A stretch of 64,000 bases of DNA. Source: an uncultured Verrucomicrobiota bacterium (GTDB lineage: Bacteria > Verrucomicrobiota > Verrucomicrobiia > Methylacidiphilales > UBA1321). The stretch lies in the NCBI GenBank assembly GCA_903863295.1, contig CAIPBM010000028.1:45050-109049 (forward strand), written 5' to 3'. Position numbers and translations under genes: made by a program. Below, piece by piece: positions 3,151 through 42,987 of this stretch. The first letter of the stretch is position 1. Each line of letters begins with the position of its first letter. The notes beneath the pieces were generated by a model. The model did no database searches. It had not been told where the DNA came from and was given only the letters and a program-made list of their open reading frames with translations.

Positions 3151-3200
3151 AGCCCGATAACTGAGAATTCCAACCCCAGACTTGATTGATCCTGACCCCC

Positions 3201-4859: not shown

Positions 4860-4869
4860 GGGCAGGGGG

Positions 4870-5661: not shown

Positions 5662-5839
5662 GGAGGTTTTTATAATGTGTTGAGTTTGCAAACGATCAGG
5701 TGCGGGGACCGAGAGAGCATCAAAAGTCAATGTGCGAAGTATCTGTATCCGATGGCATCCAGCGACGAATACTTGGTAATTTGGGTAGCCGGACGATTCA
5801 TGTATAGAGTGAGAAATGCGGATTTCATTTTCAAGATGC

Positions 5840-7450: not shown

Positions 7451-7473
7451 GCGGATGTTTTGATTTTCCCGGA

Positions 7474-8577: not shown

Positions 8578-8814
8578 GAAAGCGATTTATCGACTGTTCG
8601 AATAGAATATTCTATGAAAAGTGGATATATTCTAGTTATTATTCATATTTTGCTTGCAAAGCAAGACTTTTTTCGGCACGGTTCATTTGGGCTTAATAGC
8701 TAAAAATGGCATTGACGAGCATGCCTTCATAGATGACTTAGTGTCTATTCTTTAACCCCTATTAGGCACTTTGATACTAGTTTTGTGAGACCTCTCTTAA
8801 AATTCCTGCGTGAC

Positions 8815-14265: not shown

Positions 14266-15042
14266 ATGAATGAAAACAGCTTAGCCTCAAATCTGAGAGC
14301 CCGGAGTCAAGTCAGGCGGGCTTTCAGCCTGGTTGAGTTGCTCGTGGTCATGGCCATCATCGCGATTCTCGTCGGGTTGAGTGTCGCCTCCATTAAGGGG
14401 CTCCAGGATTCGGGAAATATCACGCAAGCCGCGAACAACATCACCGGTGTCCTCGAAAACGCTCGGGCCTATGCTATGGCCAACAATACCTACGTCTGGG
14501 TGGGATTTTACGAGGAAGCCACCACGTCGGCCGGAGCGAGCGCCCTTCACAATCAAGCTCCCCCCTATAAGGCCCCGGCTGTCGGTCGTCTGGTCATCGG
14601 GGTGGCGGCCGCGCTTGACGGGACCAGCAGCCTTACAACCACCAACCTTACCGCGGTACAGAAATTGACCATCATTCCCAACATCCACTTGACGAATATC
14701 AACACGACCCTGGCACCGGCGGCCAGCAACACCAGTCTGCCCAACAACCTCGCTGGCCGACCGCTGGCCGATAGCTTTCTGGATAGCGAGGATTCAAGCA
14801 CGAGCTCCGAATTGCCCTCCGCCACAGAAAGCTTCCAATTGAATAACTACCAATTTTATAAAGCGATTTGTTTCAATCCACAGGGCGGTGCAGAAATGGA
14901 AACGCCGAACAAAGTGCTGCAACATGCCATTGAAATCGGCTTGGTTCCCACTCATAACGGCGCGGTCAATACCACAACAAAAAACCTCGTCGCACTGCAG
15001 ATAACTGGGGCAGTGGGAAGCGTGAAAATCTACCGGCAATGA
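14266..15042 (+). CDS. Prepilin-type N-terminal cleavage/methylation domain protein, FimT/GspH-like minor (pseudo)pilin
   Basis: Class III signal RRAFSLVELLVVMAIIAILVGL, with Glu at +5 and Ala rather than Gly at -1. The following segment NITGVLENARAYAMANNTYVWVGF resembles the GspH/FimT block. Confidence 0.7.
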   Translation: MNENSLASNLRARSQVRRAFSLVELLVVMAIIAILVGLSVASIKGLQDSGNITQAANNITGVLENARAYAMANNTYVWVGFYEEATTSAGASALHNQAPPYKAPAVGRLVIGVAAALDGTSSLTTTNLTAVQKLTIIPNIHLTNINTTLAPAASNTSLPNNLAGRPLADSFLDSEDSSTSSELPSATESFQLNNYQFYKAICFNPQGGAEMETPNKVLQHAIEIGLVPTHNGAVNTTTKNLVALQITGAVGSVKIYRQ

Positions 15043-16160
15043 AGCTTTCTCCAAACAGGGAAGACGGCTCAAGCCGGTATCGCTACACGAAGACCGCCAT
15101 TCTCCGGCACATGTTCTTGGCTCCAGATGGAATGGTGACGAAACAGCGCACTGCGCGGAGGGGCTTTACCCTGGTGGAACTCCTCGTCTCCATGACCATC
15201 CTCATTGTTCTGGGCGCCGTCATTCTCCAGATCTTGAGCGCCACGACCAAGGCGACGCTCTATAGTTACAAACACATGGATACCGATACCCAGGCCCGCA
15301 CCGTTTTTGATCGCATGGCCATCGATTTCGGGCGCATGGTGATTCGGAAAGATGTTGATTACTATATCAAGCAGGCCGTCGCCTCCTCGGTGCCAACGGG
15401 AGCTACCGGTTACCCCGACCAGTACAAGGCCGTCAATGCTGAACTCGCTACGGCGGGCGTTCCCGGTAATGATCAAATCGCCTTCTATAGTGAGGTGCCC
15501 GGTTACTACCCGGCCACGGGAACGACCAGCGCCCAAAGTCAGCTCTCCCTCGCGGCGTATCGCATCAATGCCGATGCTACCTCTACCCGATATAATACCA
15601 TGGAACGCCTCGGTAAGGGGCTGGTTTGGACTTCGACCAGCAACACGAATATCGCCAACGGTATTGACGTTCCGATTGTTTTTTATCCCACCACGCTGGC
15701 CACCATCTGGCCCCAGGCGGCCAGCGCCACCGCCACAGATTCAAACAATGACTATGAAGCAATCGGGCCGGAAGTCTTCCGCTTTGAGTATTACTATAAT
15801 CTTAAGAAATCGACATCCAGCACGTTGACCAACTTTCTCAGCAATACACCCTGGGATTCGACACTGACCAATCACACATCACTCAATGGCTGGCAGGACG
15901 TGGCCTCCATCACGGTCGTCATCGCGGTGGTGGATTCGAGAACGCGCCCCTTGCTGACTCAAAATCAAATCACGACCTTGGCTGGAAACATGGTCGACTT
16001 CGATTCCACCAACACTCGCACCTGGACGCCGGGACAACTGGAATCCTCCTGGCGTACCGCCATCCAGACCGCCATAACCCAGAATGCGATTTCTGCTCCC
16101 CTGGCGACCCATATTCGTGTTTATAGCCGGACGTTTTACTTGAACACGCCCACGCCTTGA
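15039..16160 (+). CDS. Prepilin-type N-terminal cleavage/methylation domain protein, PilW/GspJ-like minor (pseudo)pilin
   Basis: ATG overlaps the upstream TGA (ATGA). Canonical RRGFTLVELLVSMTILIVLGAV. The following ATTKATLYSYKHMDTDTQARTVFDRMAIDFGRMV resembles the PilW/GspJ helical extension. Confidence 0.7.
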   Translation: MKLSPNREDGSSRYRYTKTAILRHMFLAPDGMVTKQRTARRGFTLVELLVSMTILIVLGAVILQILSATTKATLYSYKHMDTDTQARTVFDRMAIDFGRMVIRKDVDYYIKQAVASSVPTGATGYPDQYKAVNAELATAGVPGNDQIAFYSEVPGYYPATGTTSAQSQLSLAAYRINADATSTRYNTMERLGKGLVWTSTSNTNIANGIDVPIVFYPTTLATIWPQAASATATDSNNDYEAIGPEVFRFEYYYNLKKSTSSTLTNFLSNTPWDSTLTNHTSLNGWQDVASITVVIAVVDSRTRPLLTQNQITTLAGNMVDFDSTNTRTWTPGQLESSWRTAIQTAITQNAISAPLATHIRVYSRTFYLNTPTP

Positions 16161-18424
16161 TCTATCTCATGCGTTCCCCAATGGAAAAAATCGATGTCGA
16201 TGGTTCGCCTTATAAATTCATCCGGCGAACTTGGAGTGTCGTGGCGGCGATCAGCCTGGCCTTGATCTCAACGGCACCGGCTCTGGATATCCCACCCATC
16301 AATTCCGATTTTCTCTCCCGTCACGATTTGCTTTGGGATCAGATGCCGCCCGACTGGGCTTCGGGCGCATTTCAGGGAAATGGATTGTTAGGCGCGATGA
16401 TTTCGCAGCAACCGAATTCCAATAACCTTCGCTGGCACATCGGACGAACCGATGTCTATTTTACCGCCAAGCCGGGCAATCAGTACCGTGTGCCAATCGG
16501 TGATTTGGTTTGGCCGTTGAATCAGCCTCCCGTCTCCTTTTCCATGCGCCTTGACCTGTGGAACGCGGAGGTTGTGGGGACGCTCAAGCCGGATGCCGGG
16601 ACGGAACTAAAATGGAATTCCTTTACCGCCAGCGGAATGCCGGTCCAGGTCATCCGAATCACGAGTGTCGCGGGCAACTTGCCACAAATGGAATGGCATC
16701 CTGCCCCAGCCGTAAACGCCCGCGCCATCATTCGCAAAGAGGTGATCCCGCCGGAGGAGATCAATCCAAGTCCAGTGATCTCGAAGGATGGCGACATCTC
16801 CTACTCGCTCCAATCGCTGCGCGACGGCAATGAGTATGTGACCGCATGGACCCAGGTGGCCTCTCAAGACAGTGAGACCTATTATTTAACGGTCGCCTTT
16901 GCGCCCGCAGGAAAGGCCAAGGCCCAGGCCACGGAGACGATTCATCAGGCCTTGAAAACCGGCTATGATGCGATCTTGGAAAAGCATCAAGCCTGGTGGC
17001 ACTTTTACTGGAATCAAAATTGGATTTCCTTAACCGATACCCGCCTCGAAAGTTACTATGAAATCCAGCTCTATAAGCTGGCCTCCGCCACGCGTGAAGA
17101 CACCACCCCGATCGATCTGATGGGCCCTTGGTACCGGGAAAGTCCCTGGTTGAAGACCTGGTGGAACTTAAACATCCAGCTCACCTACTGGCCCATCTAT
17201 GCAGGTAATCATCTGGAACTCGGGGATCCCCTGCTGCGCATGCTCGATCAGCACCACGATGCCTTCGCCGCGAATGCAAAACCCTACGAGCAGGACTCCA
17301 TGACCATCGGCAGAACGAGCGGTCCAGATGCCCTCTCGCCGGGCGGTCGGGAGCTTTGTAATTTCCCGTGGATTCTTCACAATTACTGGCTGCAATATCG
17401 CTACAGCATGGATGAAGCGATGTTGCGCGACCGGCTTTATCCCTTATTGAAAGGTGCGACCAATTACTACATGCATTTTCTTAAGATGGGGCCGGATGGA
17501 AAACTCCATCTCATCTCGGGACTTTCACCTGAGTATCATAAAGACGCCAATCACCCCGATTGTAATATAGATCTCGCGCTGCTGCGTTGGCTTTGCCAGA
17601 CACTCATCGAAACGGCGACCAAATTCAATCTGGACCCGGAGATGATCCCCAAGTGGAAGGAGACGCTGGAAAATCTCGCTCCCTATCCGGTCAACGAAAA
17701 AGGCCTCATGGTTTCCGCGGATACCTCCTTCGATCTATCCCACCGCCATTATTCGCACCTGCTCATGATCTATCCGCTTGGTCTCATGAATTGGGAGAAC
17801 CCGCAAGACCGGCCCTTGATGGAAAAATCATTTGAGAATTGGACGAGCATGACCGAGGGATTCCGCGGCTTCTCGTTTACCGGGGCCGCAGCCATTCTCG
17901 CGCGCATGGGCAAGGCCGATGAAGCCGAGCAATGGCTGCAAAAGTGGGTCAACGATGGCAAGATACCCTACCCGATGTCGCCGACCACCATGTACGCGGA
18001 AGCGGGACCCGTCATCGAGACGCCGCTTTCGGGTGCGGAGGCCTTGCAGGAATTTTTGCTCCAAAGCTGGGGCGATAAAATCCGGGTCTTTCCTGCCATT
18101 CCCAAGGATTGGCCCGACGTCGCTTTCTACCACATGAGGGCCGAAGGAGCTTTTCTCATCAGTGCCTGTCGGGTCCATGGCAAGACGCGGACGATCCAGG
18201 TCGAAAGTTTGGCCGGAGCGCCCTGCCGAATTGAGACCGACCTGCTCGATCCCCAAACCGATCACCCGGTTCACCTGAAAAAGATCGGGCCCAACCTGTA
18301 TGAGCTTTCTTTGAAAAAAGGCGAATCCGTTACCCTATTCGCCGGAACGGATTCGACGCCTCATCCCATTGCGCCTGTCCGTCCCAACCCCAAACTCGTG
18401 AACAGTTTCGGGCTTAAAGGGTAA
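16157..18424 (+). CDS. GH95-like six-hairpin glycoside hydrolase (putative alpha-L-fucosidase family), secreted
   Basis: Start overlaps the upstream stop by 4 nt. N-terminal block LLWDQMPPDWASGAFQGNGLLGAMISQ matches the GH95 N-terminal signature LW..P..W.EALP.GNG.LGAMV. Signal-like hydrophobic segment VVAAISLALISTAPA. Total 755 aa. Confidence 0.5.
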   Translation: MIYLMRSPMEKIDVDGSPYKFIRRTWSVVAAISLALISTAPALDIPPINSDFLSRHDLLWDQMPPDWASGAFQGNGLLGAMISQQPNSNNLRWHIGRTDVYFTAKPGNQYRVPIGDLVWPLNQPPVSFSMRLDLWNAEVVGTLKPDAGTELKWNSFTASGMPVQVIRITSVAGNLPQMEWHPAPAVNARAIIRKEVIPPEEINPSPVISKDGDISYSLQSLRDGNEYVTAWTQVASQDSETYYLTVAFAPAGKAKAQATETIHQALKTGYDAILEKHQAWWHFYWNQNWISLTDTRLESYYEIQLYKLASATREDTTPIDLMGPWYRESPWLKTWWNLNIQLTYWPIYAGNHLELGDPLLRMLDQHHDAFAANAKPYEQDSMTIGRTSGPDALSPGGRELCNFPWILHNYWLQYRYSMDEAMLRDRLYPLLKGATNYYMHFLKMGPDGKLHLISGLSPEYHKDANHPDCNIDLALLRWLCQTLIETATKFNLDPEMIPKWKETLENLAPYPVNEKGLMVSADTSFDLSHRHYSHLLMIYPLGLMNWENPQDRPLMEKSFENWTSMTEGFRGFSFTGAAAILARMGKADEAEQWLQKWVNDGKIPYPMSPTTMYAEAGPVIETPLSGAEALQEFLLQSWGDKIRVFPAIPKDWPDVAFYHMRAEGAFLISACRVHGKTRTIQVESLAGAPCRIETDLLDPQTDHPVHLKKIGPNLYELSLKKGESVTLFAGTDSTPHPIAPVRPNPKLVNSFGLKG

Positions 18425-18522: not shown

Positions 18523-19593
18523 ATGTCGATTATTGAAGTGGCGAAAAAGGCAGGAGTTTCCTACGCAACGGCCTGGCGGGTGATCAACGGTAAATACAAC
18601 TTGTCCAGTGAAACAGCCGCCGCTGTCGAGCGTGCGATGACTGAGCTCAGCTTTTCCGTCGAAAATCGACGTCGCTTACGGCGCAACGTCGGCAAGGACA
18701 AGGCCGTCGAAACGGTCGCCCTGCTCCATTTCCGTCCGGTAACCACCCTCGGTAATTCCATCCTTTATCTCGTGCAAAAATGCCTGGCGGCCGAGGGGAT
18801 TAACCTGGTCTTTGCCCATGTGCAAAATGAAAATGAGATTCCGCCCGCCGTCAGGAAAGGGGAGGTCCACGGCATCCTCGGCTACGGGGAAATGCCGGAA
18901 GCGTGGATCACCGAGAGTTTAAAGAAAACCCCCGCCGTCTGGATGATGAGCACCTCCTCCCCGCATCCCGATGTCTGGGGGGACCGCGTCTCGCCGGATA
19001 ATTATGGGATCGGCACCCTGGCCGGAAAATACCTCATGGATCGCGGCCACCGGCACGTGGCCATGATGGGAACGAACGACAATTTCAGCTCTTACGGCCT
19101 CTCGCAGAGATGGTACGGCTTCCAGGCCGCCGCCTTCGGAAAATCCGATTCGGTTCACTCCATTTCCGCGCTCCAGGATAGTGAAGCCTCCTCCCAGGTC
19201 ATGCGCTCCTTAAGGCAAAAGGGGACGCCAGGAATTGAGCTCGGTAGTGCCCAACTCGCGGGAACGGCGGAAAAGTTGGTCGACCAGTGGCTGGCCCTGA
19301 AACCACGCCCCACAGGCATATTCATCTCGGTGGATCGCCTGCTCGTCGCCGTTTACGAGGTCTTGTACAACCGGGGCATCAAGATTGATCGCAATTTCGA
19401 TGTCGTCTCCTGCGACTATGAGCAGAACCTCGGGCAACATTTGCGTCCCAAGCCCGGTTGGATCGACCTGAACCGCGGGCAGATCGCCCAGTGGGCGGTC
19501 GAGCGTTTGATCTGGCAGATGAATAGCGGCAAGGTCTCATCGAATATGCTCATCTCCGTCTTCCCGTCGCTCCATTTGCCGACGGAGTCTTAG
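18523..19593 (+). CDS. LacI-family transcriptional regulator
   Basis: N-terminal HTH MSIIEVAKKAGVSYATAWRVINGKYNLSSETAAAVERAM, followed by a periplasmic-binding-protein-like sugar-binding fold. Confidence 0.85.
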   Translation: MSIIEVAKKAGVSYATAWRVINGKYNLSSETAAAVERAMTELSFSVENRRRLRRNVGKDKAVETVALLHFRPVTTLGNSILYLVQKCLAAEGINLVFAHVQNENEIPPAVRKGEVHGILGYGEMPEAWITESLKKTPAVWMMSTSSPHPDVWGDRVSPDNYGIGTLAGKYLMDRGHRHVAMMGTNDNFSSYGLSQRWYGFQAAAFGKSDSVHSISALQDSEASSQVMRSLRQKGTPGIELGSAQLAGTAEKLVDQWLALKPRPTGIFISVDRLLVAVYEVLYNRGIKIDRNFDVVSCDYEQNLGQHLRPKPGWIDLNRGQIAQWAVERLIWQMNSGKVSSNMLISVFPSLHLPTES

Positions 19594-19623
19594 CCTCGGC
19601 GCAAATTCGTCATCAGGTCACCT

Positions 19624-19648
19624 CGCTCCCAAGTTGCACTTGGGAGCG
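19624..19648. repeat. Perfect 25-bp palindrome CGCTCCCAAGTTGCACTTGGGAGCG, copy 1 of a dispersed intergenic palindrome family, 31 nt downstream of the lacI-family gene
   Basis: The sequence is self-complementary. The flanks, CCTCG on the left and CTTCCTGTTCC on the right, are shared with the copies at 57574 and 61872. Confidence 0.75.
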
Positions 19649-19960
19649 CTTCCTGTTCCTCGCGAAATTTCATTCCGCGCGAACTGGAACCGTCCTACGG
19701 GCGAGATCGTCAATGATCTTGCCTCTGTAAGTTGTTTTCTAAGTGATCCATAGGAGCGGCGAGGTCGTTTTTATGCCCCTTCGCGAAAGCGTCTACCACG
19801 AGAACTTGTCCCACCCTGGCCGTGAAGTCAGGCCACCTGGCAAAATATTTTTAGCTTTGGCGAAAATTTTCCTCCACATCGGAAATATCTCCTAACCAAT
19901 AAGTTGCCTGCGACGATTCCTGTGCGATTTTAGGAATGAAAATTGCAATCGCTATTTCTG

Positions 19961-27521: not shown

Positions 27522-28454
27522 ATGAAATTTCGGTGCACGATTATGCTCGCAGTCTTGTGCTGTTTTCCGGCTGAGGCGGAGGATTGGACCATCCAAGGCA
27601 GGGAGTACCACAATGTTGTTGTCCAGAACGTGACCGCGGACCACGTTGATATCAGTTTTGACGGGGGCGTCGGCAGTCCTCGTCTGGCCGATTTGCCTCC
27701 CGACCTGCAAAAGCGATTCAATTATCAGCCGCCAGACAGCGCCGCGGCGATGGAAGCCCGTGCGGCAGCCAGTGCGGAAATCGAGCGCGCGGCCGGCCAC
27801 ATTCTTCCGGTGAAAGTTGGCGAGACTGAAATCAAGCTCTCCGAGCCGCCTGGAATGACCGAATTGTCCAAGGACAATCCGATGTACCATTCGATTACGG
27901 ACATGACGCCAGACGACCTGGTTCTTTTGCGGACGTGCGTTTCCTCGGAGGCCCTTGAGGCTGAAAAAGCACCGGATACATCGGGTGACATCTTTTTTTC
28001 GCGAACGTTCTCCGTCAAGGAGGCCACGATGGATATCGACTACGGGAATTTCATCAATTTGGTGCAGAGGCTGGCTTTTGTGACCTCACATGGAGTACTA
28101 GTGTCGCAGGATTCCCCGGTTGATTTCATCGAAACGGAAAAGCGGCTCGATCAATTCCAGAAAGACACCGGTATCGCGGTCAAGGAGGATAGCGATGTCT
28201 ACTCCCTGGGCATGATTTCCCGCAGCGATGGATGCGTGGCCTATATGACGGCGCAGTATTTGAAAGCCACCGCCGGGGGAAAGACGGAACGGGAAAAGTG
28301 TGTCAACGTTGTGGCTTACCTCCTCCTGAAGAAGAAGCTCGTGATCGCGGTGATCTCACTAACGAAAAACATGATTTTACGAGGGGACCTTCAACCGCTT
28401 ATTCAAGAGGCCGAGAAATATCAACTCTCCCTGCAGAACTTGAATAACCAGTAA
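27522..28454 (+). CDS. Hypothetical secreted protein
   Basis: Signal peptide MKFRCTIMLAVLCCFPAEA. No recognisable motif. Visibly more A/T-rich than the flanking genes. Confidence 0.45.
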   Translation: MKFRCTIMLAVLCCFPAEAEDWTIQGREYHNVVVQNVTADHVDISFDGGVGSPRLADLPPDLQKRFNYQPPDSAAAMEARAAASAEIERAAGHILPVKVGETEIKLSEPPGMTELSKDNPMYHSITDMTPDDLVLLRTCVSSEALEAEKAPDTSGDIFFSRTFSVKEATMDIDYGNFINLVQRLAFVTSHGVLVSQDSPVDFIETEKRLDQFQKDTGIAVKEDSDVYSLGMISRSDGCVAYMTAQYLKATAGGKTEREKCVNVVAYLLLKKKLVIAVISLTKNMILRGDLQPLIQEAEKYQLSLQNLNNQ

Positions 28455-28462
28455 GAAGAGAC

Positions 28463-30205
28463 CTACTGGCTCGCCAAGGGATATTCCAAGATGAGCTGCT
28501 TGGTCTTCTGTTTGGTGGCGGGATCGCCGGTGCCGTTGATGACACTGTTGATACCGCTGTTTTCCGTGGCGCCGGAGAGACGGAAGATCAGCGCATTGTG
28601 AAATTTCACGTCGGGACTTTTTGGAGCCTCAATCGCGGTATCGGAGAAAATATTGTCCTGGTTGAAGACGCAATAAATGCCCAGGCCCCAGGCTTCGTGG
28701 GTCTTGACGTTGTCCGCGACTTTGTAGCCGGGATATCCCTTCACCGTGCCATGCTGCCAGGCATCCTGGGTTGGAGGATCGTAAGGCATCTCGCACTGGT
28801 AAAAGTAGACGCGACCGTTCTCGCCATTCCAGAGGGTCATATTCTCCTGGAAGTGCTCTACGAAGAGGCCGTACCAAGTGACGTTGGCTCCATTGACGAT
28901 GAGGCCATTCGCTGCTGGATTAGTGCTCCATCCCGCACCGGCGCCATGATCTGCGCGCCAGATCCAGGCATGATCCCCGATGACGTCGCTGCTGTTGACT
29001 TCCACGCAGGTCTTGACCTGTCCGGGAGAGCCTCCGCCAATCCGGCAGAAGATATCGTAGAGCAGGGTGGGATCGGTGGCGTGGGATTGGGTGCTTCCCG
29101 GTTCGCCCACCTGCAGAAGGACGGGCGATGAGGTTGACCCCGCGTCAAAGAGGACGCAACAGACTTTGACGCCGCTGACATCGGAGATTTCCATGGCGGA
29201 CGTGCCCTTCACGGGATTGAGCGTTGCCATGCCGAGACCGAAGACGATGGTATCCGGGCGGGTGACCTTGATCGGAGCATCAAGTTGATAGATACCGGGA
29301 GTGAGCAGGAGATTTTTCCCGGAGGCCAGCGCATCGTTGATGGTGGCGGCGGTATCGTGATCGGGCTTGGCGATGTAGAATTGGCTGATCGGAATGGAAT
29401 CGCCGACGGGTGGCGTTCCCTCGGTCCAACTCGTGCCGGAGCTGTCCTTTACCAAGGGCGGGACAAAGACGTTATAGTTACCGCTGTCATCGACATAGAG
29501 AAACGGCTTTTCCCGGATGATGGGCGTCTTTTCAATTGTCGTGTAAGGCTTCGCCGGCCAAGTGCCTCCGGGAGGGTTAATGCAGCCAAGGAATACCATG
29601 TTCCAGACGCCGTTGCTCCATGAGGACCATTGAGAATTCCGCGAGAACCACTGCTGCTGGGAACCGGGAATGATCTGGTTGTCGATCTTGGAATCAGCCA
29701 TGTAGCCGCCGCTGGTCCAGCCGTTGTCAAAAAGGGAAAGCGAGCCTTTGATGTGCATCCGGCGGAATGGTGCAGCCTGGGAGACGGTCCATTGATCCAT
29801 GCGACCGCTGGGGATGATCGCCAGGTTTTCGCAGCCTCTCCAGAAGTTGAGACAGCCGCTGTTCTGGGCGCGCTTCGCATCGGAGTGAATTTCTCCGGTG
29901 ATGGTCGTGTCATCTGGCAGTTTGCCGAGACCATAAACCTGGGTGTAGTAGCCGACTTTGACGACGGCCTTGTAAGTACCGGGCTTGAAGAAAATCGCAT
30001 GCCGTTCCGAGCCGAATTCATTGCGCTCTTCCTGCTCATAGATCGAGTCGCATTGGGTTTGGATGGCGGCGGGGTCTGAAGTGGGATCAAAGATCAGGAC
30101 ATTGGGACCGAAGTCGGGTGCTGGGTCGGCAGCACGGGAGACTTGGGTGAAGACCAGGGCCATGAGAACAGCGACGACGGGTATGAGCTTGGATCGATAG
30201 TGCAT
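28463..30205 (-). CDS. Secreted right-handed beta-helix protein (pectate-lyase-superfamily-like), putative glycoside hydrolase
   Basis: Internal Met at 30205 begins the signal peptide MHYRSKLIPVVAVLMALVFTQVSRA. N-terminal block PDFGPNVLIFDPTSDPAAIQTQCD ... GTYKAVVKVG resembles the Pectate_lyase_3 start D.T.AIQ.A ..GTY. Gly/Asn-rich repetitive beta-strand region. The ORF-track start is 30424. Confidence 0.45.
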   Translation of the reverse strand: MHYRSKLIPVVAVLMALVFTQVSRAADPAPDFGPNVLIFDPTSDPAAIQTQCDSIYEQEERNEFGSERHAIFFKPGTYKAVVKVGYYTQVYGLGKLPDDTTITGEIHSDAKRAQNSGCLNFWRGCENLAIIPSGRMDQWTVSQAAPFRRMHIKGSLSLFDNGWTSGGYMADSKIDNQIIPGSQQQWFSRNSQWSSWSNGVWNMVFLGCINPPGGTWPAKPYTTIEKTPIIREKPFLYVDDSGNYNVFVPPLVKDSSGTSWTEGTPPVGDSIPISQFYIAKPDHDTAATINDALASGKNLLLTPGIYQLDAPIKVTRPDTIVFGLGMATLNPVKGTSAMEISDVSGVKVCCVLFDAGSTSSPVLLQVGEPGSTQSHATDPTLLYDIFCRIGGGSPGQVKTCVEVNSSDVIGDHAWIWRADHGAGAGWSTNPAANGLIVNGANVTWYGLFVEHFQENMTLWNGENGRVYFYQCEMPYDPPTQDAWQHGTVKGYPGYKVADNVKTHEAWGLGIYCVFNQDNIFSDTAIEAPKSPDVKFHNALIFRLSGATENSGINSVINGTGDPATKQKTKQLILEYPLASQ

Positions 30206-30483
30206 AGAAGTGTAAATAGTGGGGCGGTGGAATTCTCGGTTGAAGGAGGGTGTGAAGAGGGTGATGCTGGCGTTTAAAAATACGTGATCAGAGGAGAAAA
30301 TCGTATCGAGAAAAGCGATAAAAGTGTTAACAGCAAAACTCGACTGTCCAAGTGTGCATAAAATTGCATTAACTGTCAGTAAAAATATCGGCCAGTCCCT
30401 TTTTCTTTCTTTTACCGAGGGCAAGCCGCCGGATTTATCGGCAGGAATGAGAGGAACTGGATCGACCGTAAGGACAGGGTTCT

Positions 30484-35461: not shown

Positions 35462-36883
35462 ATGGCCACGCTCTCCCCCTCCATCGACCATACCCTCAAC
35501 CCGTCGCTTGAAACCAGCCGGTCGAGCCATCGCGGTTCATTTGCGATCATGACCGTCCTGTTTTTCATGTGGGGATTCATGACCGTCTTCAACGACATCC
35601 TCATTCCCCGTTTCAAGGAGGCGTTTACGCTCAGCTATTTCGAGGCGATGCTCGTCCAATTCGCGTTCTTTGGCGCCTATTTCATCGGGTCGTTGCTCTA
35701 CTTCATCATCTCGGCGACCACCGGCGATCCGATTGCGAGGATCGGTTACAAAAACGGCGTGGTCATCGGGCTCCTCATCTCCGCCACCGGGAGCGCCATT
35801 TTCTGGCCGGCGGCGAGCCTGGCTTCCTATCCGATGTTTCTGGGCGCGCTCTTCGTCGTCGGGCTTGGCTTTGCCATGTTGCAAATCGCGGCCAATCCGT
35901 ATGTCACCATTCTCGGGCCGGAAAAAACCGCGTCTTCGCGCCTGAATCTCGCCCAAGGTTTCAATTCGCTGGGCACGACGATTGGGCCCCTCATCGGCGG
36001 CTGGTTGATTTTTCAATACTTTGCCAAGACGGGAGCTCACGGGGCCGACTCGGTCAAAGTACCTTATCTCATTTTCAGCATCGTCTTCGTGGTCATTGCG
36101 GTGATTTTCTATTTCATCCATTTGCCTCATATTGGCGAAGGCAAGGTTGAGCCGGGGGCAGGGGCCTTGAAGTATCCCCACGTCGTCTTGGGAATTATCG
36201 CGATTTTCATGTATGTCGGCGGCGAGGTCTCCGTCGGCAGTTCGATCATCAATTTTCTGGGCCAAAAATCGGTCGCCAATCTCGACGCTGTGGAGGCGAG
36301 CAAGTACGTCTCGCTCTTCTGGGGCGGCATGCTGATGGGCCGTTTCATGGGAGCCGTGGAATTGAGCGAGTTGACCCGGCGCAACAAGCAAATCTTCCTC
36401 GCCTTGATCCCGCTCGCGGGCCTGCTGATCCTCTGGAGCGTCCGGGGTTGGGGATTCGTGCAATATTACTTCCCGTTTTTGATTCTCTGCTGGGCGTTGT
36501 TCCAGCTCGGCCAATCGCGCGCGGCGCGCACCTTGATGATTTTCGCGCTCACGGTCGTCACGCTTTTGCTCGCGGCCATCCTGGTCGGCGGAACCGTCGC
36601 CATGTGGTGCATCGTGGCCATTGGCCTGTTCACCTCAATCGGGTGGTCCAACACCTTTTCCCTCGCCCTCGAAGGCACGGGCGTCTTGAAGAGTCAGGTC
36701 TCTTCCTTGCTCGTCATGGCCATTCTGGGTGGCGCCATTCTACCGCCCATGCAGGGAGCGGTGGCCGATTACACCAAGAACCTCCAACTCTCCTACATCG
36801 TGCCTCTCATCGCCTATCTCTACGTCGCCTTCTATGGTTTGTATGGGCACCGCGTGGGTCGTCCGCGCGAGATTGCCGCCTGA
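35462..36883 (+). CDS. L-fucose:H+ symporter-family MFS permease (FucP/GluP-like)
   Basis: FucP-family N-terminal block FFMWGFMTVFNDILIPRFKEAFTLSYFEAMLVQFAFFGAYFIGS. Twelve TM helices. Confidence 0.8.
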   Translation: MATLSPSIDHTLNPSLETSRSSHRGSFAIMTVLFFMWGFMTVFNDILIPRFKEAFTLSYFEAMLVQFAFFGAYFIGSLLYFIISATTGDPIARIGYKNGVVIGLLISATGSAIFWPAASLASYPMFLGALFVVGLGFAMLQIAANPYVTILGPEKTASSRLNLAQGFNSLGTTIGPLIGGWLIFQYFAKTGAHGADSVKVPYLIFSIVFVVIAVIFYFIHLPHIGEGKVEPGAGALKYPHVVLGIIAIFMYVGGEVSVGSSIINFLGQKSVANLDAVEASKYVSLFWGGMLMGRFMGAVELSELTRRNKQIFLALIPLAGLLILWSVRGWGFVQYYFPFLILCWALFQLGQSRAARTLMIFALTVVTLLLAAILVGGTVAMWCIVAIGLFTSIGWSNTFSLALEGTGVLKSQVSSLLVMAILGGAILPPMQGAVADYTKNLQLSYIVPLIAYLYVAFYGLYGHRVGRPREIAA

Positions 36884-36892
36884 AATCGGGCC

Positions 36893-39154
36893 ATGCGCTC
36901 ACTCCTCATCGCTCTCGGCCTCTTGGGTTGTTTCCCGGTACGGGCCGAGGCGAATTCCGCTTCTTCGGATCCGGGTCTGGTGGCCAACGTCGATATCTTG
37001 CAGGGAACAGACTCCGCGGGCCATAACTCCCGCGGCAATACCTTGCCCTTGACGGGTATGCCCTGGGGCATGGTGAATTGGTCGATCCAGAACGGCGACG
37101 GGGCCTGGTACTTCCACCCGACCGGCAAGATCAACGGTTTCCGGGCCACGCATCAGCCAAGCCCCTGGATCATGGATTACGGTCAGTTCGTGCTCATGCC
37201 CCAGTCCGGAGAGTTGCAGATTGCGACAGCAGCGCGCACCACCGACTACGATATGGGTACGGCTCTCCTCCGGCCGGATTACGAAAAGCTCGATCTCAAG
37301 ACCGCGGGTATCACGGTGGAACTAACCGGCACGGAACGTTGTGGTGTTTTCCGCCTCAACTACCAGACCGCAAACCTCGGGCGTCTCGTTCTCAATACGT
37401 TTGGCCCGGGAGAAATCAAAATCGAAGGTCGGAACATTTACGGAATCAGTACTCAAAATCGTGGAGGGGTCTCCAAGAATTTCGCTTCCTACTTTGTCAT
37501 CCAATTGGATCGGGACATGGTGAAAAGTGAAGTCGTGCCTCCCGTGGTTCCCCCGAACTCGGGAAAAAGCCATCATCAGGCCAAGGAATTGGATGCTTAC
37601 GTCGAATTCAAAACTTCGCCGGACGATCCCGTCCTCGTCAAAATCGGAACGTCCTTCATCAGTTGGAAGCAGGCGGAACAAAATCTCCTCGCCGAGACGT
37701 CAGGAAGTTTTGAAAAGGTCCATGACCGTGTTCTTGCCACCTGGAACGCCAACCTCGGCAAGGTCACCATTGAGGCCAGTGACGAGCAAAAGCGTGTCTT
37801 CTACAGCTGCCTCTACCGCGCCCAGATGTTCCCGCATCGTCTTTACGAAATTGATGCCACTGGAAAGGCAATTCACTACAGCCCCTACGATGGGAACATC
37901 CACGACGGCGTTCTCTATGGCGACATCGGCATCTGGGACGCGTTCCGGACGACCTTTCCCTTCATCACCCTGATTTACCCCGCGCAATTGTCTGAAATCC
38001 TGCAAGGCTTCGTCAATGCGGCGAAGGAAGGAAATGGCACGCTTCCGGAATGGCCCAGCCCCGGCTATCGACGCTGCATGATTGGCCAGCATTGCGCCGC
38101 GATCTTTGCGGACGCCGCCGCGAAAGGAATCACGAATTTTGACTTGGCGTCGGCTTACGAATCCCTGCGAAAAAGTGCCTTTGAGCCCCCTACCCAGGGC
38201 GAAATGGTGCGCGATGGTCTGGCCGATTATCTCAAGCTTGGTTATACCCCGGATACGGTGCGGTACTCGGTCTCGACCACGCTCGATTACGCCTACGACG
38301 ACTGGTGCGTCGCCCAGCTTGCCCTCCGGCTGAATCATCCGGAAATCGCCAAGACTCTCCTGGCGCGGGCGCAAAATTACCGGAACCTCTGGGATCCCGG
38401 CGTCGGCTTCATGCGCGCGAAGAATGCGGAGGGCCAGTGGATCGAACCCTTTGACCCCTTCGCCTGGGGCGGTCCCTATGCGGAATCGGGCCCTTGGCAA
38501 TCGAGCTGGTTTGTGCCCCACGATCCGCTTGGATTGACCGGACTCCTCGGAGGAAAACCGGCCTTCATCGCGAAGCTCGATCAACTTTTCAGCCTTCCCC
38601 CCACCTTTCATTACGGTGGCTACCGCACTCAAATTCACGAGATGGAAGAGATGTCCGCGCTCAATTTCGGGCAATGCGCCCTGAACAATCAGCCCTCCTT
38701 TTCCATTCCATATCTTTACGCAGCTATCGGTGAACCGGCAAAGACCCAGTACTGGACCCGCCGGGCCTGCGCGGAGCTTTTCCATGCAACTCCCCGCGGT
38801 TTTCCCGGCGATGAAGACAATGGTTCCTTGGCCAGTTGGTACCTTTTCAGTTCCATCGGCCTTTATCCCTTTTGCCCCGGTTCAACCCAGTATCTCCTGA
38901 CCAGCCCGGTTTTCTCCAAGATCACCCTTGATCTTGCCGGCAACAAAACACTCCTCATCACGGCCAACGGCAACAGCGAAAAGAATGTCTATATTCAGCG
39001 GCTCAAATTCAACGGCGCTCCCGTCACGAAAACCTGGATCAGTCACCAGCAACTCATTAATGGAGGTTTGCTTGAGTTTGAAATGGGGCCTGAGCCCGTC
39101 ACGGGCAAACTCGACGAGTCAGATTTGCTCAATTCAGCCTCCCCCAAAGAATGA
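36893..39154 (+). CDS. Glycoside hydrolase family 92 (alpha-1,2-mannosidase-like), secreted
   Basis: Signal peptide MRSLLIALGLLGCFPVRAEA. GH92 N-terminal block VDILQGTDSAGHNSRGNTLPLTGMPWGMVNWS. Conserved central and C-terminal GH92 blocks. Total 753 aa. Confidence 0.85.
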   Translation: MRSLLIALGLLGCFPVRAEANSASSDPGLVANVDILQGTDSAGHNSRGNTLPLTGMPWGMVNWSIQNGDGAWYFHPTGKINGFRATHQPSPWIMDYGQFVLMPQSGELQIATAARTTDYDMGTALLRPDYEKLDLKTAGITVELTGTERCGVFRLNYQTANLGRLVLNTFGPGEIKIEGRNIYGISTQNRGGVSKNFASYFVIQLDRDMVKSEVVPPVVPPNSGKSHHQAKELDAYVEFKTSPDDPVLVKIGTSFISWKQAEQNLLAETSGSFEKVHDRVLATWNANLGKVTIEASDEQKRVFYSCLYRAQMFPHRLYEIDATGKAIHYSPYDGNIHDGVLYGDIGIWDAFRTTFPFITLIYPAQLSEILQGFVNAAKEGNGTLPEWPSPGYRRCMIGQHCAAIFADAAAKGITNFDLASAYESLRKSAFEPPTQGEMVRDGLADYLKLGYTPDTVRYSVSTTLDYAYDDWCVAQLALRLNHPEIAKTLLARAQNYRNLWDPGVGFMRAKNAEGQWIEPFDPFAWGGPYAESGPWQSSWFVPHDPLGLTGLLGGKPAFIAKLDQLFSLPPTFHYGGYRTQIHEMEEMSALNFGQCALNNQPSFSIPYLYAAIGEPAKTQYWTRRACAELFHATPRGFPGDEDNGSLASWYLFSSIGLYPFCPGSTQYLLTSPVFSKITLDLAGNKTLLITANGNSEKNVYIQRLKFNGAPVTKTWISHQQLINGGLLEFEMGPEPVTGKLDESDLLNSASPKE

Positions 39155-40710
39155 GCGATCAGCCCCAATGGCCACGACTCTCCTGGCTAACGTTTTCCGT
39201 TTATGTCCTGGCGTTCTCCGGCTGGGTGAACCCAGCGTGGGCCGATCCCTTGTCGTGGGTGACTCAGGACCATCAGGGACACCTCCTTTATCAAACCGAC
39301 AATCGAGGCAACCGGATACCCGATTTTTCTCACGCAGGGTATGGTGGCGGAGGCATCGCTCTGCCGGATGTTCCCACCCAAAAGCGGGTGAATCCCTCCG
39401 GGGAAGATGACACCTCCGCGATCCAGGCGGCGCTGGACGAGGTCGCCGCGTTGCCGCTCAAGGAGCGTTTTCGAGGAGCGGTGCTCCTCAGCTCCGGAAC
39501 CTTCCATTGCGCCAAAACGTTGACCCTCTCCCAATCGGGAGTTGTGCTGCGTGGTTCGGGCTCGGGAGAGAACGGAACCATCATTGAGATGACCGGTCCC
39601 CCTCATCTTTGTCTCCAGATTCTGGGGCACGAGATGAAGCCACCTGTCCTCGACCCAGCGAAAGGTTTGGAAATCCTGGATTCCTATGTCCCGGTGGGAA
39701 CCCAGGACGTCACGGTTAAGGACACTTCCGGGTTGAAAAAAGGTGATCGGATGATCATCGAACGCAAGCTCACCTCTGAGTGGATTCACTCCCTGGGAAT
39801 GGACACGCTCGTTCGCGATGGCAAACCTCAAACCTGGATCAAACCAGACCAGGTGGTCACTTATGAACGTACGATAGAATCGATCAAAGGCCGGCAAATC
39901 CACTTCGATCTTCCCATGCCCGACGTCATCGACGCGCGGCTCATGTCGCCCGAAACTCTGAAAGTTTTTAAGGTCAATCCCGAGGAGCCACATCTTTCGC
40001 AATGTGGAATCGAATCGCTCCAAATCCATTCACCACCCCCGGCTGGCATCCTCACCGCCCCAAACCATCATGCGATTCTTCTCAACAACTGCGAGGACTG
40101 CTGGATCAGGGACGTGACCATGAACGATGTTTTGACCAATGTTCAGGTTCTTGAGGGCAGTCGTCGCATCACCATCGAGAACGTGAACGCTTTTCACTCA
40201 GCCACCGTGGTAGGCGGAAAAGGGGCTTCGGCTGATTTCATGCTGAGGGGCTCCCAGGTGTTGCTCGACCGCTCCTCCTCCACCGGGCACGGCTCATTCT
40301 TTGTCGCCACCGCGGAAACCGGCTCTGTCTTGAATGTTGTCTTGAATTGTCATTTTTATGGGGTCGGTGGGATTCAGCCCCACATGCGCTGGTCAACGAC
40401 TTTGCTGGCAGACAATTGCCAACTCCCCCAAGGGAAGATTGCTTACCACAACCGGGGTTTTGCCGGATCAGGCCAAGGATGGGCCATCGCCTGGGGCGTG
40501 GTCTGGAATTGTACCGCAAGTCTCTATAAGATCGCCTCGCCTCCCGGTGCGCTCAACTGGTGTATCGGGTGCCAAGGGGGACTTGATAAAAAACTTGGCC
40601 TCACGGAAGGCTATGTCTCCTTTGGCAAGCCCGTGCTGCCGCAAAGTCTCTACCTGGCCCAATTACGGGATCGCCTGGGCGACCAAGCTCTGAAAAATAT
40701 GGGCTATTAG
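39151..40710 (+). CDS. Secreted beta-helix protein, pectate-lyase-superfamily-like (paralog A)
   Basis: ATGA overlap with the GH92 stop. Signal peptide. Block DFSHAGYGGGGIALPDV ... EDDTSAIQAALDEVAAL ... LSSGTFHCAKTLTLSQSGVVLRGSGSG resembles the Pectate_lyase_3 start. Strongly similar to the convergent downstream gene. Confidence 0.6.
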   Translation: MSDQPQWPRLSWLTFSVYVLAFSGWVNPAWADPLSWVTQDHQGHLLYQTDNRGNRIPDFSHAGYGGGGIALPDVPTQKRVNPSGEDDTSAIQAALDEVAALPLKERFRGAVLLSSGTFHCAKTLTLSQSGVVLRGSGSGENGTIIEMTGPPHLCLQILGHEMKPPVLDPAKGLEILDSYVPVGTQDVTVKDTSGLKKGDRMIIERKLTSEWIHSLGMDTLVRDGKPQTWIKPDQVVTYERTIESIKGRQIHFDLPMPDVIDARLMSPETLKVFKVNPEEPHLSQCGIESLQIHSPPPAGILTAPNHHAILLNNCEDCWIRDVTMNDVLTNVQVLEGSRRITIENVNAFHSATVVGGKGASADFMLRGSQVLLDRSSSTGHGSFFVATAETGSVLNVVLNCHFYGVGGIQPHMRWSTTLLADNCQLPQGKIAYHNRGFAGSGQGWAIAWGVVWNCTASLYKIASPPGALNWCIGCQGGLDKKLGLTEGYVSFGKPVLPQSLYLAQLRDRLGDQALKNMGY

Positions 40711-42287
40711 TAGCCGATATTTTTTAAGGCCACATCTCCCAGGCGCTCATGAAGCTGGGCGAGATAAAGGCTCTTGGGGAGGACCGGCGTTCCGAACGAA
40801 ATAAAACCGTCATTCAATCCCGTTTTTTGATCGGCCGCGCCCTTGCATCCGATGCACCAGTTGATCGCCCCCGGCGGCTGCTGGATGTTGAAAATTTTCG
40901 CCGTGCAATTCCAGACCACGCCCCAACTCATCGCCCAGCCATGTCCCGATCCGGCCGTACCGCGATTGATATACTCAATTTTTCCGTCAGGAACGTTGCA
41001 ACTATCCACCAGCAGCGCCGTCGACCAACGCGCATGCGGTTGGATCGCCCCGCCATCGCCATCCACACCATAGAAATTACAATTCAGCACCACGTTCAGG
41101 TTCGATTCCGTGTTCGCCGTGGCAACGTAGAAGGAGCCGTGTCCGGTGGATGAGGAGCGATCCAGTAGAATCTGCGTTCCGCGAATCGTGTAGTCCGCCG
41201 GATAGCCCGCCCCCTTGCTCACCGTCGCGGTATGAAAAGCATTGGCGCCCTCAATCGTCACCCGTCGTGCGCTGCCCAGGACATCGATATTCTGCAACGT
41301 GTCCCTCATCACGACATCCTTCACCCAGCAATCCTCACAGTTGTTGATCGAGATGGCGTGATTATTTTTTGTCGTCAGCGTTCCCGATGGGGGAGGGGAA
41401 TTGATCTGGAGCGATTCAATCCCACACTGCGCCAGGCGTGGCTCAACGGTTTTGCCGAGCTTGAAAACCTTGGCGCTGTCTGGCGCCAGAAGCTGCGCGT
41501 CGATCGCATCAGGCATGGGGATATCAAAGCTGATCTTGTTTCCATCGACAGCGCGCACCGTCCGCTCGTAGGTCATCACCTGGTCAAGATGGATCCACGT
41601 CTGCGGCTTGCCGTCGCGCACCAGAGTGTCCATGCCCAGCGAATGAATCCACGCGGCGGTGAATTTTCGCTCGATAAGAATGTGATCACCCGCGGCAAGA
41701 CTGGAGGCATCCGCCACCGTGACGGAAACCGTGCCCTCCGGGACATACGTATCCGTAATGGCGATGCCTTGGGAGGGATCAAGCTGGGGACGGGCAATAT
41801 TCTTCCCGTTGATTTCAAGGCAGAGATGCGGATCCCCGGTCATCTCAATGATGGTGCCTTTGTCCCCGGATCCCGAGCCGCGCAGGACAATTCCGGATTG
41901 AGAAAGGGTCAACGGTTTCGCGCAGTGAAATGTGCCCGCACTGAGAAGTACCGTTCCTCGAAACCCGTTGGTCAGCGGCAGCGCGGCGACTTCATCCAGG
42001 GCCGCTTGAATCGCGCCGCTGTCATCGTCTCCGGCGGGGGCGACCGTTTTTTTCACGGGAACATCCGGTAGCGCCACGCCGCCTCCCGCATAACCCGCGC
42101 ACGAAAAGTCGGGAATCGTATCGCCCTTGGCCGTGGCTTGATAGTGGAGATGCCCCTGATCGTCCTGGCTCACCCACTGCGTCGGTGCCGAATCGGCGAA
42201 GGCCTGGGTCGCCATGCCCAGACAGCATGCGGCCGGGAGATAGCGTCGAAGCACGGTTACGGGAACAAAGCGGGGAATGGTCATCAT
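40707..42287 (-). CDS. Secreted beta-helix protein, pectate-lyase-superfamily-like (paralog B)
   Basis: Collinear with paralog A along its whole length. Shared blocks include DFSCAGYAGGGVALPDV, DDDSGAIQAALDEVAALPL, LSAGTFHCAKPLTLSQSG, WIHSLGMDTLVRDGKPQTWI, QCGIESLQI and the ending LYLAQLHERLGDVALKNIGY. Its stop codon overlaps paralog A's stop. Confidence 0.6.
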   Translation of the reverse strand: MMTIPRFVPVTVLRRYLPAACCLGMATQAFADSAPTQWVSQDDQGHLHYQATAKGDTIPDFSCAGYAGGGVALPDVPVKKTVAPAGDDDSGAIQAALDEVAALPLTNGFRGTVLLSAGTFHCAKPLTLSQSGIVLRGSGSGDKGTIIEMTGDPHLCLEINGKNIARPQLDPSQGIAITDTYVPEGTVSVTVADASSLAAGDHILIERKFTAAWIHSLGMDTLVRDGKPQTWIHLDQVMTYERTVRAVDGNKISFDIPMPDAIDAQLLAPDSAKVFKLGKTVEPRLAQCGIESLQINSPPPSGTLTTKNNHAISINNCEDCWVKDVVMRDTLQNIDVLGSARRVTIEGANAFHTATVSKGAGYPADYTIRGTQILLDRSSSTGHGSFYVATANTESNLNVVLNCNFYGVDGDGGAIQPHARWSTALLVDSCNVPDGKIEYINRGTAGSGHGWAMSWGVVWNCTAKIFNIQQPPGAINWCIGCKGAADQKTGLNDGFISFGTPVLPKSLYLAQLHERLGDVALKNIGY

Positions 42288-42468: not shown

Positions 42469-42987
42469 ATGCCCACGTCTCCGTTCACCCTGAAGATTTC
42501 CCGCCGCAGTCGGGCAGGCTTCTCGCTCACGGAAGTCGCGGTGGCCTTGGCCATCGCCTCATTTTGCCTTACCTCCATCGTGGGTATGATTCCCGTCGGT
42601 TTGCTGGCCAACCAAGCCGCCAGCGGCCAAACCGTCACCAACGGCATCGTCTCTTCCGTCGTTGCAGATTTGCGTGGGGCACCCCTCCCGACCACCGCCA
42701 CGCCCACGCCGACATCCCTCCAGTATTCGATACCCATTCCGGCCAATTCAAAGACATCCACGTCCAGCCTCTTCTTTGCCACGGACGGCTCCTTCAGCTC
42801 GACCCAGCAAAAGAACTCCGTCTATATGGTAGTCGTTAGTTTCTTGAACAACGGCGCCACCGCCACGACGGATAAAACCAGCACCTTTGCCAACATCAGC
42901 ATCAACTGGCCCATTCCTCCTGCGGCCACGACGGCCTCCAAGTGCGCCAATAGCTACCAGACTTTCATCGCGCTCGATCGAAGCTGA
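42469..42987 (+). CDS. Prepilin-type N-terminal cleavage/methylation domain protein (172 aa pilin/pseudopilin)
   Basis: RSRAGFSLTEVAVALAIASFCLTSIVGMIPV carries the canonical G|FSLTE class III signal with Glu5. Thr/Ser-rich globular part. Not adjacent to the other pilin genes. Confidence 0.65.
   Translation: MPTSPFTLKISRRSRAGFSLTEVAVALAIASFCLTSIVGMIPVGLLANQAASGQTVTNGIVSSVVADLRGAPLPTTATPTPTSLQYSIPIPANSKTSTSSLFFATDGSFSSTQQKNSVYMVVVSFLNNGATATTDKTSTFANISINWPIPPAATTASKCANSYQTFIALDRS

What the first reader, a model, noticed from the sequence alone, without database searches (positions are those of the whole stretch)
39151..42287. Convergent paralogous beta-helix genes whose stop codons overlap, forming a ~1.5-kb imperfect inverted duplication
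The 519-aa and 526-aa proteins align collinearly along their whole length; the shared blocks are listed under features 39151..40710 and 40707..42287. They are encoded tail-to-tail with TAG/TAA sharing nucleotides (40707-40710). A large inverted repeat centred on shared stop codons is unusual. It could drive recombination or inversion, or gene conversion between the copies. Both proteins carry a Pectate_lyase_3-like N-terminus (DDTSAIQAALD ... GTFHCAKTLTL), so they are probably secreted glycan-active enzymes. The upstream copy is co-transcribed with fucP and GH92.
Basis: seen in the sequence. Interest (0 to 1): 0.6.

Follow-up and report, generated by a model that had tools for sequence, protein, structure and literature searches.

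The report
Old convergent paralogs, uncharacterised beta-helix enzymes
Two anciently duplicated genes for secreted beta-helix proteins, probably sugar-polymer-cutting enzymes of an unstudied family, sit tail-to-tail with a common 4-base stop-codon overlap; the DNA copies are far too diverged to recombine, so the arrangement is a curiosity rather than a mechanism.

Summary
ORF A (39151-40710, +, 519 aa) and ORF B (40707-42287, -, 526 aa) are collinear paralogs, 66% identical as protein. Their stops (TAG/TAA) share the tetramer TTAG.

The "inverted repeat" is only 64% identical as DNA. Third codon positions are 40% identical, pS is 0.73 (saturated), and the longest exact match is 20 nt. The duplication predates the split from a related genome where the two copies lie in tandem. 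No supported gene-conversion tract was found. Independent assemblies show the same arrangement. Recombination, inversion or ongoing conversion is therefore not supported.

Four-base convergent stop overlaps are a known common class. The 32-nt palindrome at the junction follows from two mirrored, conserved "LKN[IM]GY*" gene ends.

The parts
35462..36883 (+). MFS sugar transporter (gluP/fucP family), first gene of the putative operon
   Evidence: NCBIfam TIGR01272 gluP 252.6 bits, above its cut-off of 202.55. fucP equivalog 195 bits, below its cut-off of 280. Pfam MFS_1.
36893..39154 (+). GH92 alpha-mannosidase-family gene, 9 nt after the MFS gene; its stop overlaps the start of A (ATGA)
   Evidence: Pfam Glyco_hydro_92 E=4e-158 plus Glyco_hydro_92N; sequence.
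39151..40710 (+). Paralog A, 519 aa: signal-peptide-like N-terminus and a right-handed beta-helix with an inserted beta-rich domain (about residues 150-285). 'A-type' copy, ortholog of P0001.
40707..42287 (-). Paralog B, 526 aa: same architecture. 'B-type' copy, positional ortholog of P0004/P0005/P0006.
40693..40724 (.). Central palindrome AAAAATATgGGCTA-TTAG-TAGCCgATATTTTT (14-nt arms with one mismatch, 4-nt loop equal to the shared stop tetramer). It resembles a weak bidirectional terminator and is a by-product of two mirrored conserved gene ends.
39315..39614 (.). Best-conserved DNA segment of the inverted repeat (pairs with 41818-42117; 300 nt, 74% complementary). It encodes the conserved N-terminal beta-helix cap.
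41818..42117 (.). Partner arm of the segment above.
42469..42987 (+). 172-aa protein with a prepilin-type N-terminal methylation motif, divergent from B. It is a conserved neighbour of B-type genes in related genomes.
   Evidence: Pfam N_methyl. 65-67% identity to the divergent neighbours of P0004 and P0005.

Best explanation
A and B are two old, separately maintained paralogs of a large uncharacterised family of secreted right-handed beta-helix proteins. They are most likely endo-acting glycan depolymerases, either hydrolase or lyase. A is expressed from an MFS-transporter/GH92 operon. B is expressed from its own promoter in the AT-rich region it shares with a divergent pseudopilin-like gene. 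The duplication happened before this lineage split from the lineage of GCA_903960385, where the same two copies lie head-to-tail. At least one later rearrangement therefore produced the tail-to-tail order. Ordinary intergenic compaction then brought the two stops into the common 4-nt TTAG overlap. The 1.5-kb 'inverted repeat' is the residue of shared ancestry kept by protein-level selection, not an active DNA element. The short palindrome at the junction is the automatic result of mirroring two conserved LKN[IM]GY-stop gene ends. It may incidentally help terminate both transcripts. Shown: paralogy, divergence, age, fold, family size, context, reproducibility. Inferred: secretion, enzymatic activity, operon structure, order of rearrangements, terminator role.
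Confidence: 0.72

Rival explanations
1. The pair is a recombinogenic inverted repeat. RecA-mediated exchange between the arms inverts or scrambles the segment, or gene conversion homogenises the copies.
For: The two arms are homologous over about 1.5 kb with no spacer. In the N-terminal roughly 100 codons A is slightly closer to B than to its ortholog P0001 at nucleotide level, 0.59-0.74 against 0.46-0.65.
Against: DNA identity is 64%, the longest exact match is 20 nt and synonymous sites are saturated. From established knowledge, RecA recombination needs more than about 20-30 nt of perfect identity and falls steeply with divergence. The C-terminal 217 columns give 99-100% bootstrap for orthology to different lineages, and the N-terminal A+B grouping gets only 45%. 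The higher third-position identity within one genome is expected from shared codon usage. Independent assemblies show one arrangement. No recombinase gene was seen among the annotated neighbours.
Confidence: 0.03
2. The tail-to-tail arrangement with zero spacer is selected. The junction hairpin works as a bidirectional intrinsic terminator, and/or convergent transcription makes expression of the two enzyme variants mutually interfering, acting as a toggle between specificities.
For: The 42-nt junction folds at -15.9 kcal/mol on the + strand (z -5.3) and -10.7 kcal/mol on the - strand (z -4.4), with an A-tract upstream and a T-tract downstream on both strands. A and B have separate promoter regions.
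Against: The G+C core of the stem is only 5 bp with 3 G-C pairs. Terminator-like sites are not enriched in the region: 11 found against 9.7 expected. The A/T tracts are the inherited codons AAA-AAT of the conserved C-terminus, present in single-copy relatives. The convergent arrangement is not conserved: the relative has a tandem pair, and 72 of 82 loci are single copy.
Confidence: 0.12
3. A and B are not enzymes but secreted or surface beta-helix binding proteins (adhesin-like).
Against: Neighbours and fusion partners are overwhelmingly carbohydrate-active enzymes, and one member lies in a Bacteroides SusC/SusD locus. Many invariant Asp/His/Arg/Trp residues across 39 sequences fit a conserved active or binding cleft.
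Confidence: 0.12
4. The inverted duplication is an assembly artefact, such as a hairpin chimera or a collapsed repeat.
For: Two short contigs from other assemblies end 30-92 nt beyond the junction.
Against: The arms are 36% different, so they cannot be a foldback of one sequence. The Logan contig L086 spans the junction by 840 nt and is 100% identical to the window. Three further assemblies agree on the junction. Each copy has its own orthologs.
Confidence: 0.01

Closest known systems
Bacteroidota beta-helix proteins with the Pfam architecture PF12708 (Pect-lyase_RHGA_epim) + PF13229 (Beta_helix) + PF16315 (DUF4955), e.g. Pedobacter L064:4311-5852
   Same: Same length (about 510 aa) and full-length collinear homology: hhalign probability 99.3%, E 1e-20, 28% identity over 422 columns. 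Shared features include the N-terminal DFSxAGY motif, the DxxAIQxA cap and the C-terminal P-SL-AQL-RL helix. They occur next to members of the present family in the same loci.
   Different: A and B score below the curated cut-offs of all three models: 14.5/27, 15.8/25.9 and 16-18/25 bits. The E315-D316 'CEDCW' turn is not shared. That family is itself uncharacterised, and no paper in the library mentions DUF4955.
GH28 polygalacturonases and other beta-helix CAZymes (GH82, GH87, GH110, GH141, PL6, PL9, AlgE epimerases, phage tailspike depolymerases)
   Different: Sequence identity is 8-19%. Only about 260-280 of 519 residues align. No Pfam or NCBIfam model of these families is matched. There is an extra inserted domain of about 130 residues and a distinct N-terminal motif.
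4-nt convergent stop-codon overlaps (tetramers TTAG, CTAG, TTAA, CTAA) in prokaryotic genomes
   Same: Exactly this tetramer class (TTAG). Described as the characteristic short convergent overlap and attributed to genome compaction or stop-codon mutation (PMC2174442).
   Different: Here the two genes are paralogs, so the flanking codons mirror each other and extend the tetramer into a 32-nt palindrome.
Bidirectional intrinsic (Rho-independent) terminators between convergent genes
   Same: A hairpin flanked by an A-tract and a T-tract, so that either strand gives stem plus U-run.
   Different: It lies wholly inside coding sequence. The G+C core is only 5 bp. Function was not tested, and its sequence is explained by conserved codons.

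Membership tests
Pectin-lyase-fold (right-handed parallel beta-helix) superfamily | Right-handed parallel beta-helix core | tested here: met
Pfam PF12708 (Pectate_lyase_3 / Pect-lyase_RHGA_epim) | Score at or above the gathering cut-off (27 bits) | tested here: not met
   A scores 14.5 bits, E 0.032. B has no hit at E<=0.01. 28 of 39 family members give weak hits, best E 8.5e-4. Homology is inferred only through hhalign to a true member.
DUF4955-containing beta-helix proteins (PF16315) | C-terminal DUF4955 domain at or above 25 bits | tested here: inconclusive
   16.2 bits (A) and 17.8 bits (B), matching only the last roughly 25 residues. 38 of 39 members hit weakly. The profile comparison to a true member is highly significant. 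This looks like a sister family rather than membership.
GH28 | Match to the Glyco_hydro_28 model / conserved catalytic Asp motifs | tested here: not met
   No PF00295 hit for A, B or any of the 39 members at E<=1. Only fold similarity, 12% identity. The catalytic motifs were not mapped.
GH55 / GH87 / GH110 / GH141 | Sequence similarity to solved members; family-specific domain layout | tested here: not met
PL29 (BT_3328 family hyaluronate/chondroitin lyase) | NCBIfam NF058554 at or above 1100 bits | tested here: not met
   25-26 bits, E about 1e-6, covering only residues about 121-292.
Recombinogenic inverted repeat / invertible segment | Arms with long tracts of near-identity (tens of nt exact, >90% overall) | tested here: not met
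   64% identity, longest exact run 20 nt. The best segment is 300 nt at 74%.
Recombinogenic inverted repeat / invertible segment | Alternative orientations or conversion tracts observed | tested here: not met
   One arrangement in four assemblies. No supported conversion. Read-level data were not available.
Secreted protein (Sec signal peptide) | N-terminal n-h-c region with an AxA cleavage site | tested here: inconclusive
   A reads ...LSWLTFSVYVLAFSGWVNPAWA|DP and B reads ...RRYLPAACCLGMATQAFA|DS, judged by eye. Residues 1-31 have low pLDDT with a helix at 10-24. No signal-peptide predictor was available.
Bidirectional intrinsic terminator | Stable G+C-rich hairpin followed by a U-run on both strands, with mapped 3' ends | tested here: inconclusive
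   Hairpin at -15.9 and -10.7 kcal/mol with T-runs on both strands. The G+C core is only 5 bp, there are no transcript data, and the count of such sites is not above the shuffled expectation.

The most novel reading that the evidence does not exclude
The A/B family may be a so-far unclassified catalytic family of beta-helix glycan depolymerases. It comprises 1728 clusters at 50% identity at E<=1e-30, and is present in Verrucomicrobiota, Planctomycetota, Acidobacteriota, Bacteroidota and Kiritimatiellota. In the verrucomicrobial clade it would act with GH92, GH2, GH130, acetyl-esterases and sulfatases on a mannose-rich, acetylated and possibly sulfated polysaccharide. The two paralogs would provide different cleavage specificities.
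Probability: 0.3. Interest if true: 0.5.

Novelty: new member of a known kind. Interest (0 to 1): 0.22.

Why it matters
As a DNA feature it matters little. It is a diverged paralog pair in a common overlap configuration and should not be flagged as a recombination hotspot.

The useful by-product is the protein family. It is abundant, phylogenetically broad and entirely unannotated. It is a beta-helix family embedded in polysaccharide-utilisation loci of soil and freshwater Verrucomicrobiota, Planctomycetota, Acidobacteriota and Bacteroidota. That makes it a reasonable target for CAZyme discovery.

Tried and rejected
- **Foldseek against afdb50:** the library was not installed, so no UniProt names were obtained.
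- **Exact look-up of P0002:** not on record. The A protein (P0121) look-up worked instead.
- **First bootstrap script:** it timed out and was rewritten.
- **Literature:** searches for DUF4955/PF16315/IPR032532 returned no papers. A search for newly founded beta-helix GH families gave nothing relevant.
- **PDB sequence searches:** the single sequence gave no hit. The family profile gave only the N-terminal cap of 7chu.
- **Rfam:** no family reached gathering threshold anywhere in the window.
- **Gene conversion:** sliding-window nucleotide comparison gave a mild N-terminal excess of A-B similarity. Region-wise bootstrapped trees did not support it.
- **Selection on the junction palindrome:** I checked whether its A/T tracts reflect selection. 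They are inherited codons found in single-copy relatives, so I rejected this.
- **More family copies in the window:** none found.
Full report
**1. The observation**

The ORF listing gives ORF A at 39151..40710 (+, 519 aa) and ORF B at 40707..42287 (-, 526 aa). The sequence at the junction reads ...AAA AAT ATG GGC TAT TAG|TAG CCG ATA TTT TTT....
- The + stop TAG is at 40708-40710.
- The - stop TAA is the reverse complement of TTA at 40707-40709.
- The gene ends therefore overlap by the tetramer TTAG.

BLASTP of A against B gives 332/503 identities (66%), 79% positives, E=0, collinear from residue 24 to the last residue. No further copy exists in the window.

Independent assemblies agree. A Logan contig (5.6 kb, spanning the junction) and an ENA contig are 100% identical to the window. 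A third contig has the same gene calls with the same 4-nt overlap.

**2. The inverted repeat as DNA**

- Codon-aligned nucleotide identity is 64%, at 74/80/40% for codon positions 1/2/3.
- The longest exact matches are two 20-nt runs.
- The repeat finder recovers only pieces: 300 nt at 74%, 132 nt at 75% and 78 nt at 71%.
- Nei-Gojobori counting gives pS 0.73 (at saturation) and pN 0.21, so dN/dS is about 0.09.

These are two anciently separated genes kept similar by selection on the protein. From established knowledge of RecA-dependent recombination, a minimal efficient processing segment of about 20-30 nt of perfect identity is needed, and recombination drops steeply with divergence. On that basis these arms are not a realistic recombination substrate.

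**3. Age and history of the duplication**

In a neighbour-joining tree with 200 bootstraps, winA pairs with P0001 (99.5%). winB falls with P0003-P0007 (73% overall; 99% on the C-terminal 217 columns).

P0001 and P0006 (a B-type protein) lie on one contig of another genome in tandem on the same strand, 4 nt apart, followed by a sulfatase gene. The duplication therefore predates the split of these lineages. At least one rearrangement separates the tandem and convergent orders. With only two A-type-bearing lineages the direction cannot be decided.

B is the positional ortholog of the single-copy genes:
- Its divergent neighbour (42469..42987, 172 aa, prepilin-type N-methylation motif) is 65-67% identical to the divergent neighbours of P0004 and P0005.

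Among 82 related loci, 72 hold one copy and 10 hold two or three. These extra copies are almost always co-directional. Only L053 has an opposite-strand copy, and it lies 1.2 kb away.

Gene conversion was tested in two ways:
- Sliding windows show A slightly closer to B than to P0001 in the first roughly 100 codons.
- Region-wise trees give only 45% support for A+B there, and 100%/99% for orthology in the C-terminal part.

Conversion is not supported. A very old event in the 5' third cannot be excluded.

**4. The junction**

Four-nucleotide convergent overlaps built from CTAA, TTAA, CTAG or TTAG are described as the characteristic short convergent overlap in a survey of 58 prokaryotic genomes (PMC2174442). 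Other convergent pairs in this window are separated by only 8-68 nt (coordinates), so tight packing is normal here.

Both proteins end in the family-conserved LKN[IM]GY. The mirrored codons therefore extend the tetramer into a 32-nt palindrome at 40693-40724, with 14-nt arms, one mismatch and the loop TTAG.
- As RNA it folds at -15.9 kcal/mol on the + strand (z -5.3) and -10.7 kcal/mol on the - strand (z -4.4).
- The simple scan calls it terminator-like on both strands.
- Its G+C core is only 5 bp.
- Such sites are not enriched in the region: 11 found against 9.7 expected.
- The A/T tracts are the inherited codons AAA-AAT, seen at the same place in single-copy relatives: CTGAAAAATATCGG.TAT TAG in L083, L084 and L009.

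I read the palindrome as a by-product that might incidentally aid termination.

**5. The proteins**

No Pfam or NCBIfam model passes its cut-off. The sub-threshold hits are PF12708 (14.5 bits), PF13229, the last 25 residues of DUF4955, and the PL29 BT_3328 model at 25 bits against a cut-off of 1100. The PDB holds no sequence relative.

An AlphaFold2 model built on 39 homologs is confident (pLDDT 84.3, pTM 0.87). Its layout is:
- a low-confidence N-terminal helix (residues 10-24; the sequences end in AWA|D and AFA|D, which look like signal peptides);
- a beta-helix interrupted by a beta-rich insert (about residues 150-285);
- two C-terminal helices.

- phage ORF18 and tailspike depolymerases;

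The nearest modelled relatives are Bacteroidota proteins with the architecture PF12708+PF13229+DUF4955. hhalign gives probability 99.3%, E 1e-20 and 28% identity over the full length. No paper in the library mentions that domain.

**6. Family size and context**

- The word-indexed search returned more than 1543 hits, all unnamed or 'hypothetical'.
- At least 558 GTDB species representatives carry a member. They span Verrucomicrobiota, Planctomycetota, Acidobacteriota, Bacteroidota and Kiritimatiellota.
- An exhaustive HMM search finds 1728 50%-identity clusters at E<=1e-30 and 5509 at E<=1e-3. These include multidomain proteins.

Domain fusions include PL6 chondroitinase B, ricin-type lectin domains and CHB_HEX_C.

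Immediate neighbours in 80 loci are dominated by carbohydrate-active families: other beta-helix proteins/GH28/PL6, SASA acetyl-esterases, GH29 fucosidases, GH88, sulfatases, PF05426 lyases, GH2, GH3 and GH95. In Bacteroides oleiciplenus a member follows SusC/SusD.

In the verrucomicrobial clade closest to the window, a set of families recurs around the gene: GH92, GH2 (Ig_GlcNase type), GH130, GDSL/SASA esterases and sulfatase. The window itself carries GH2, SASA, GDSL, sulfatase and GH130 genes at 448-8577, and GH92 directly upstream of A.

My inference, at moderate to low confidence, is an endo-depolymerase for a mannose-rich, acetylated and possibly sulfated glycan. Its products would be finished by the exo-enzymes and imported by the gluP/fucP-type MFS transporter (TIGR01272, 252.6 bits, above its cut-off).

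**7. Verdict**

Its functional guess (secreted glycan-active beta-helix enzymes, A co-transcribed with the MFS and GH92 genes) is reasonable and now better supported. Its structural-dynamics reading (recombination, inversion, conversion; 'unusual') is not supported.

As a genomic feature this is ordinary: an old paralog pair in a common compaction configuration. The residual interest lies in the large, unannotated protein family.

Noticed in passing
window 39187..40029 (-) and 41232..42071 (+): Each paralog carries a long antisense ORF (280 and 279 aa) at mirrored positions. Both lie in the codon-aligned antisense frame, where stops arise only opposite the sense codons TTA, CTA and TCA. They are most likely a by-product of codon usage and paralogy, not genes.
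   Followed up: partly
window 448..8577: A cluster of GH2 (Ig_GlcNase type), SASA esterase, GDSL esterase, SGSH-type sulfatase and GH130 genes. These are the same families that flank members of the A/B family in related Verrucomicrobiota. Here they lie about 30 kb from the A/B pair.
   Followed up: partly
window 42469..42987 (+); L083 9302-9802; L084 5788-6321: A small protein (166-177 aa) with a prepilin-type N-methylation motif is conserved (65-78% identity) as the divergent neighbour of B-type genes in three lineages. Its link to the beta-helix protein is unexplained.
   Followed up: partly
window 19620..19706 (-): ARAGORN calls a tRNA-Phe (GAA) of 87 nt, unusually long for a tRNA-Phe. No Rfam family reached gathering threshold anywhere in the window, tRNA included.
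   Followed up: no
window 8785..13515 (+), 14266..16160 (+), 16157..18424 (+), 18523..19593 (+): A 1576-aa ORF with no Pfam hit is followed by two N_methyl-motif proteins, a GH95-like gene and a LacI-type regulator. This may be another glycan-related unit.
   Followed up: no
L087 (ends at window 40740); ERZ1426567 contig (ends about 92 nt past the A stop): Two short contigs from other assemblies break 30-92 nt beyond the A/B junction. This could be coincidence, low coverage, or assembly-graph trouble near the palindrome. The read-out sequence is identical to the window.
   Followed up: partly
P0124, P0176, P0138: The family domain also occurs as a module. It is fused C-terminally to a PL6 chondroitinase-B domain, and found together with ricin-type lectin domains and with CHB_HEX_C/Fn3_assoc domains.
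   Followed up: partly
window convergent pairs, e.g. 3186..4859/4870..5901 and 27522..28454/28463..30424: Convergent gene pairs across the window are separated by only 8-68 nt. Very short tail-to-tail spacers appear to be a general trait of this genome.
   Followed up: no
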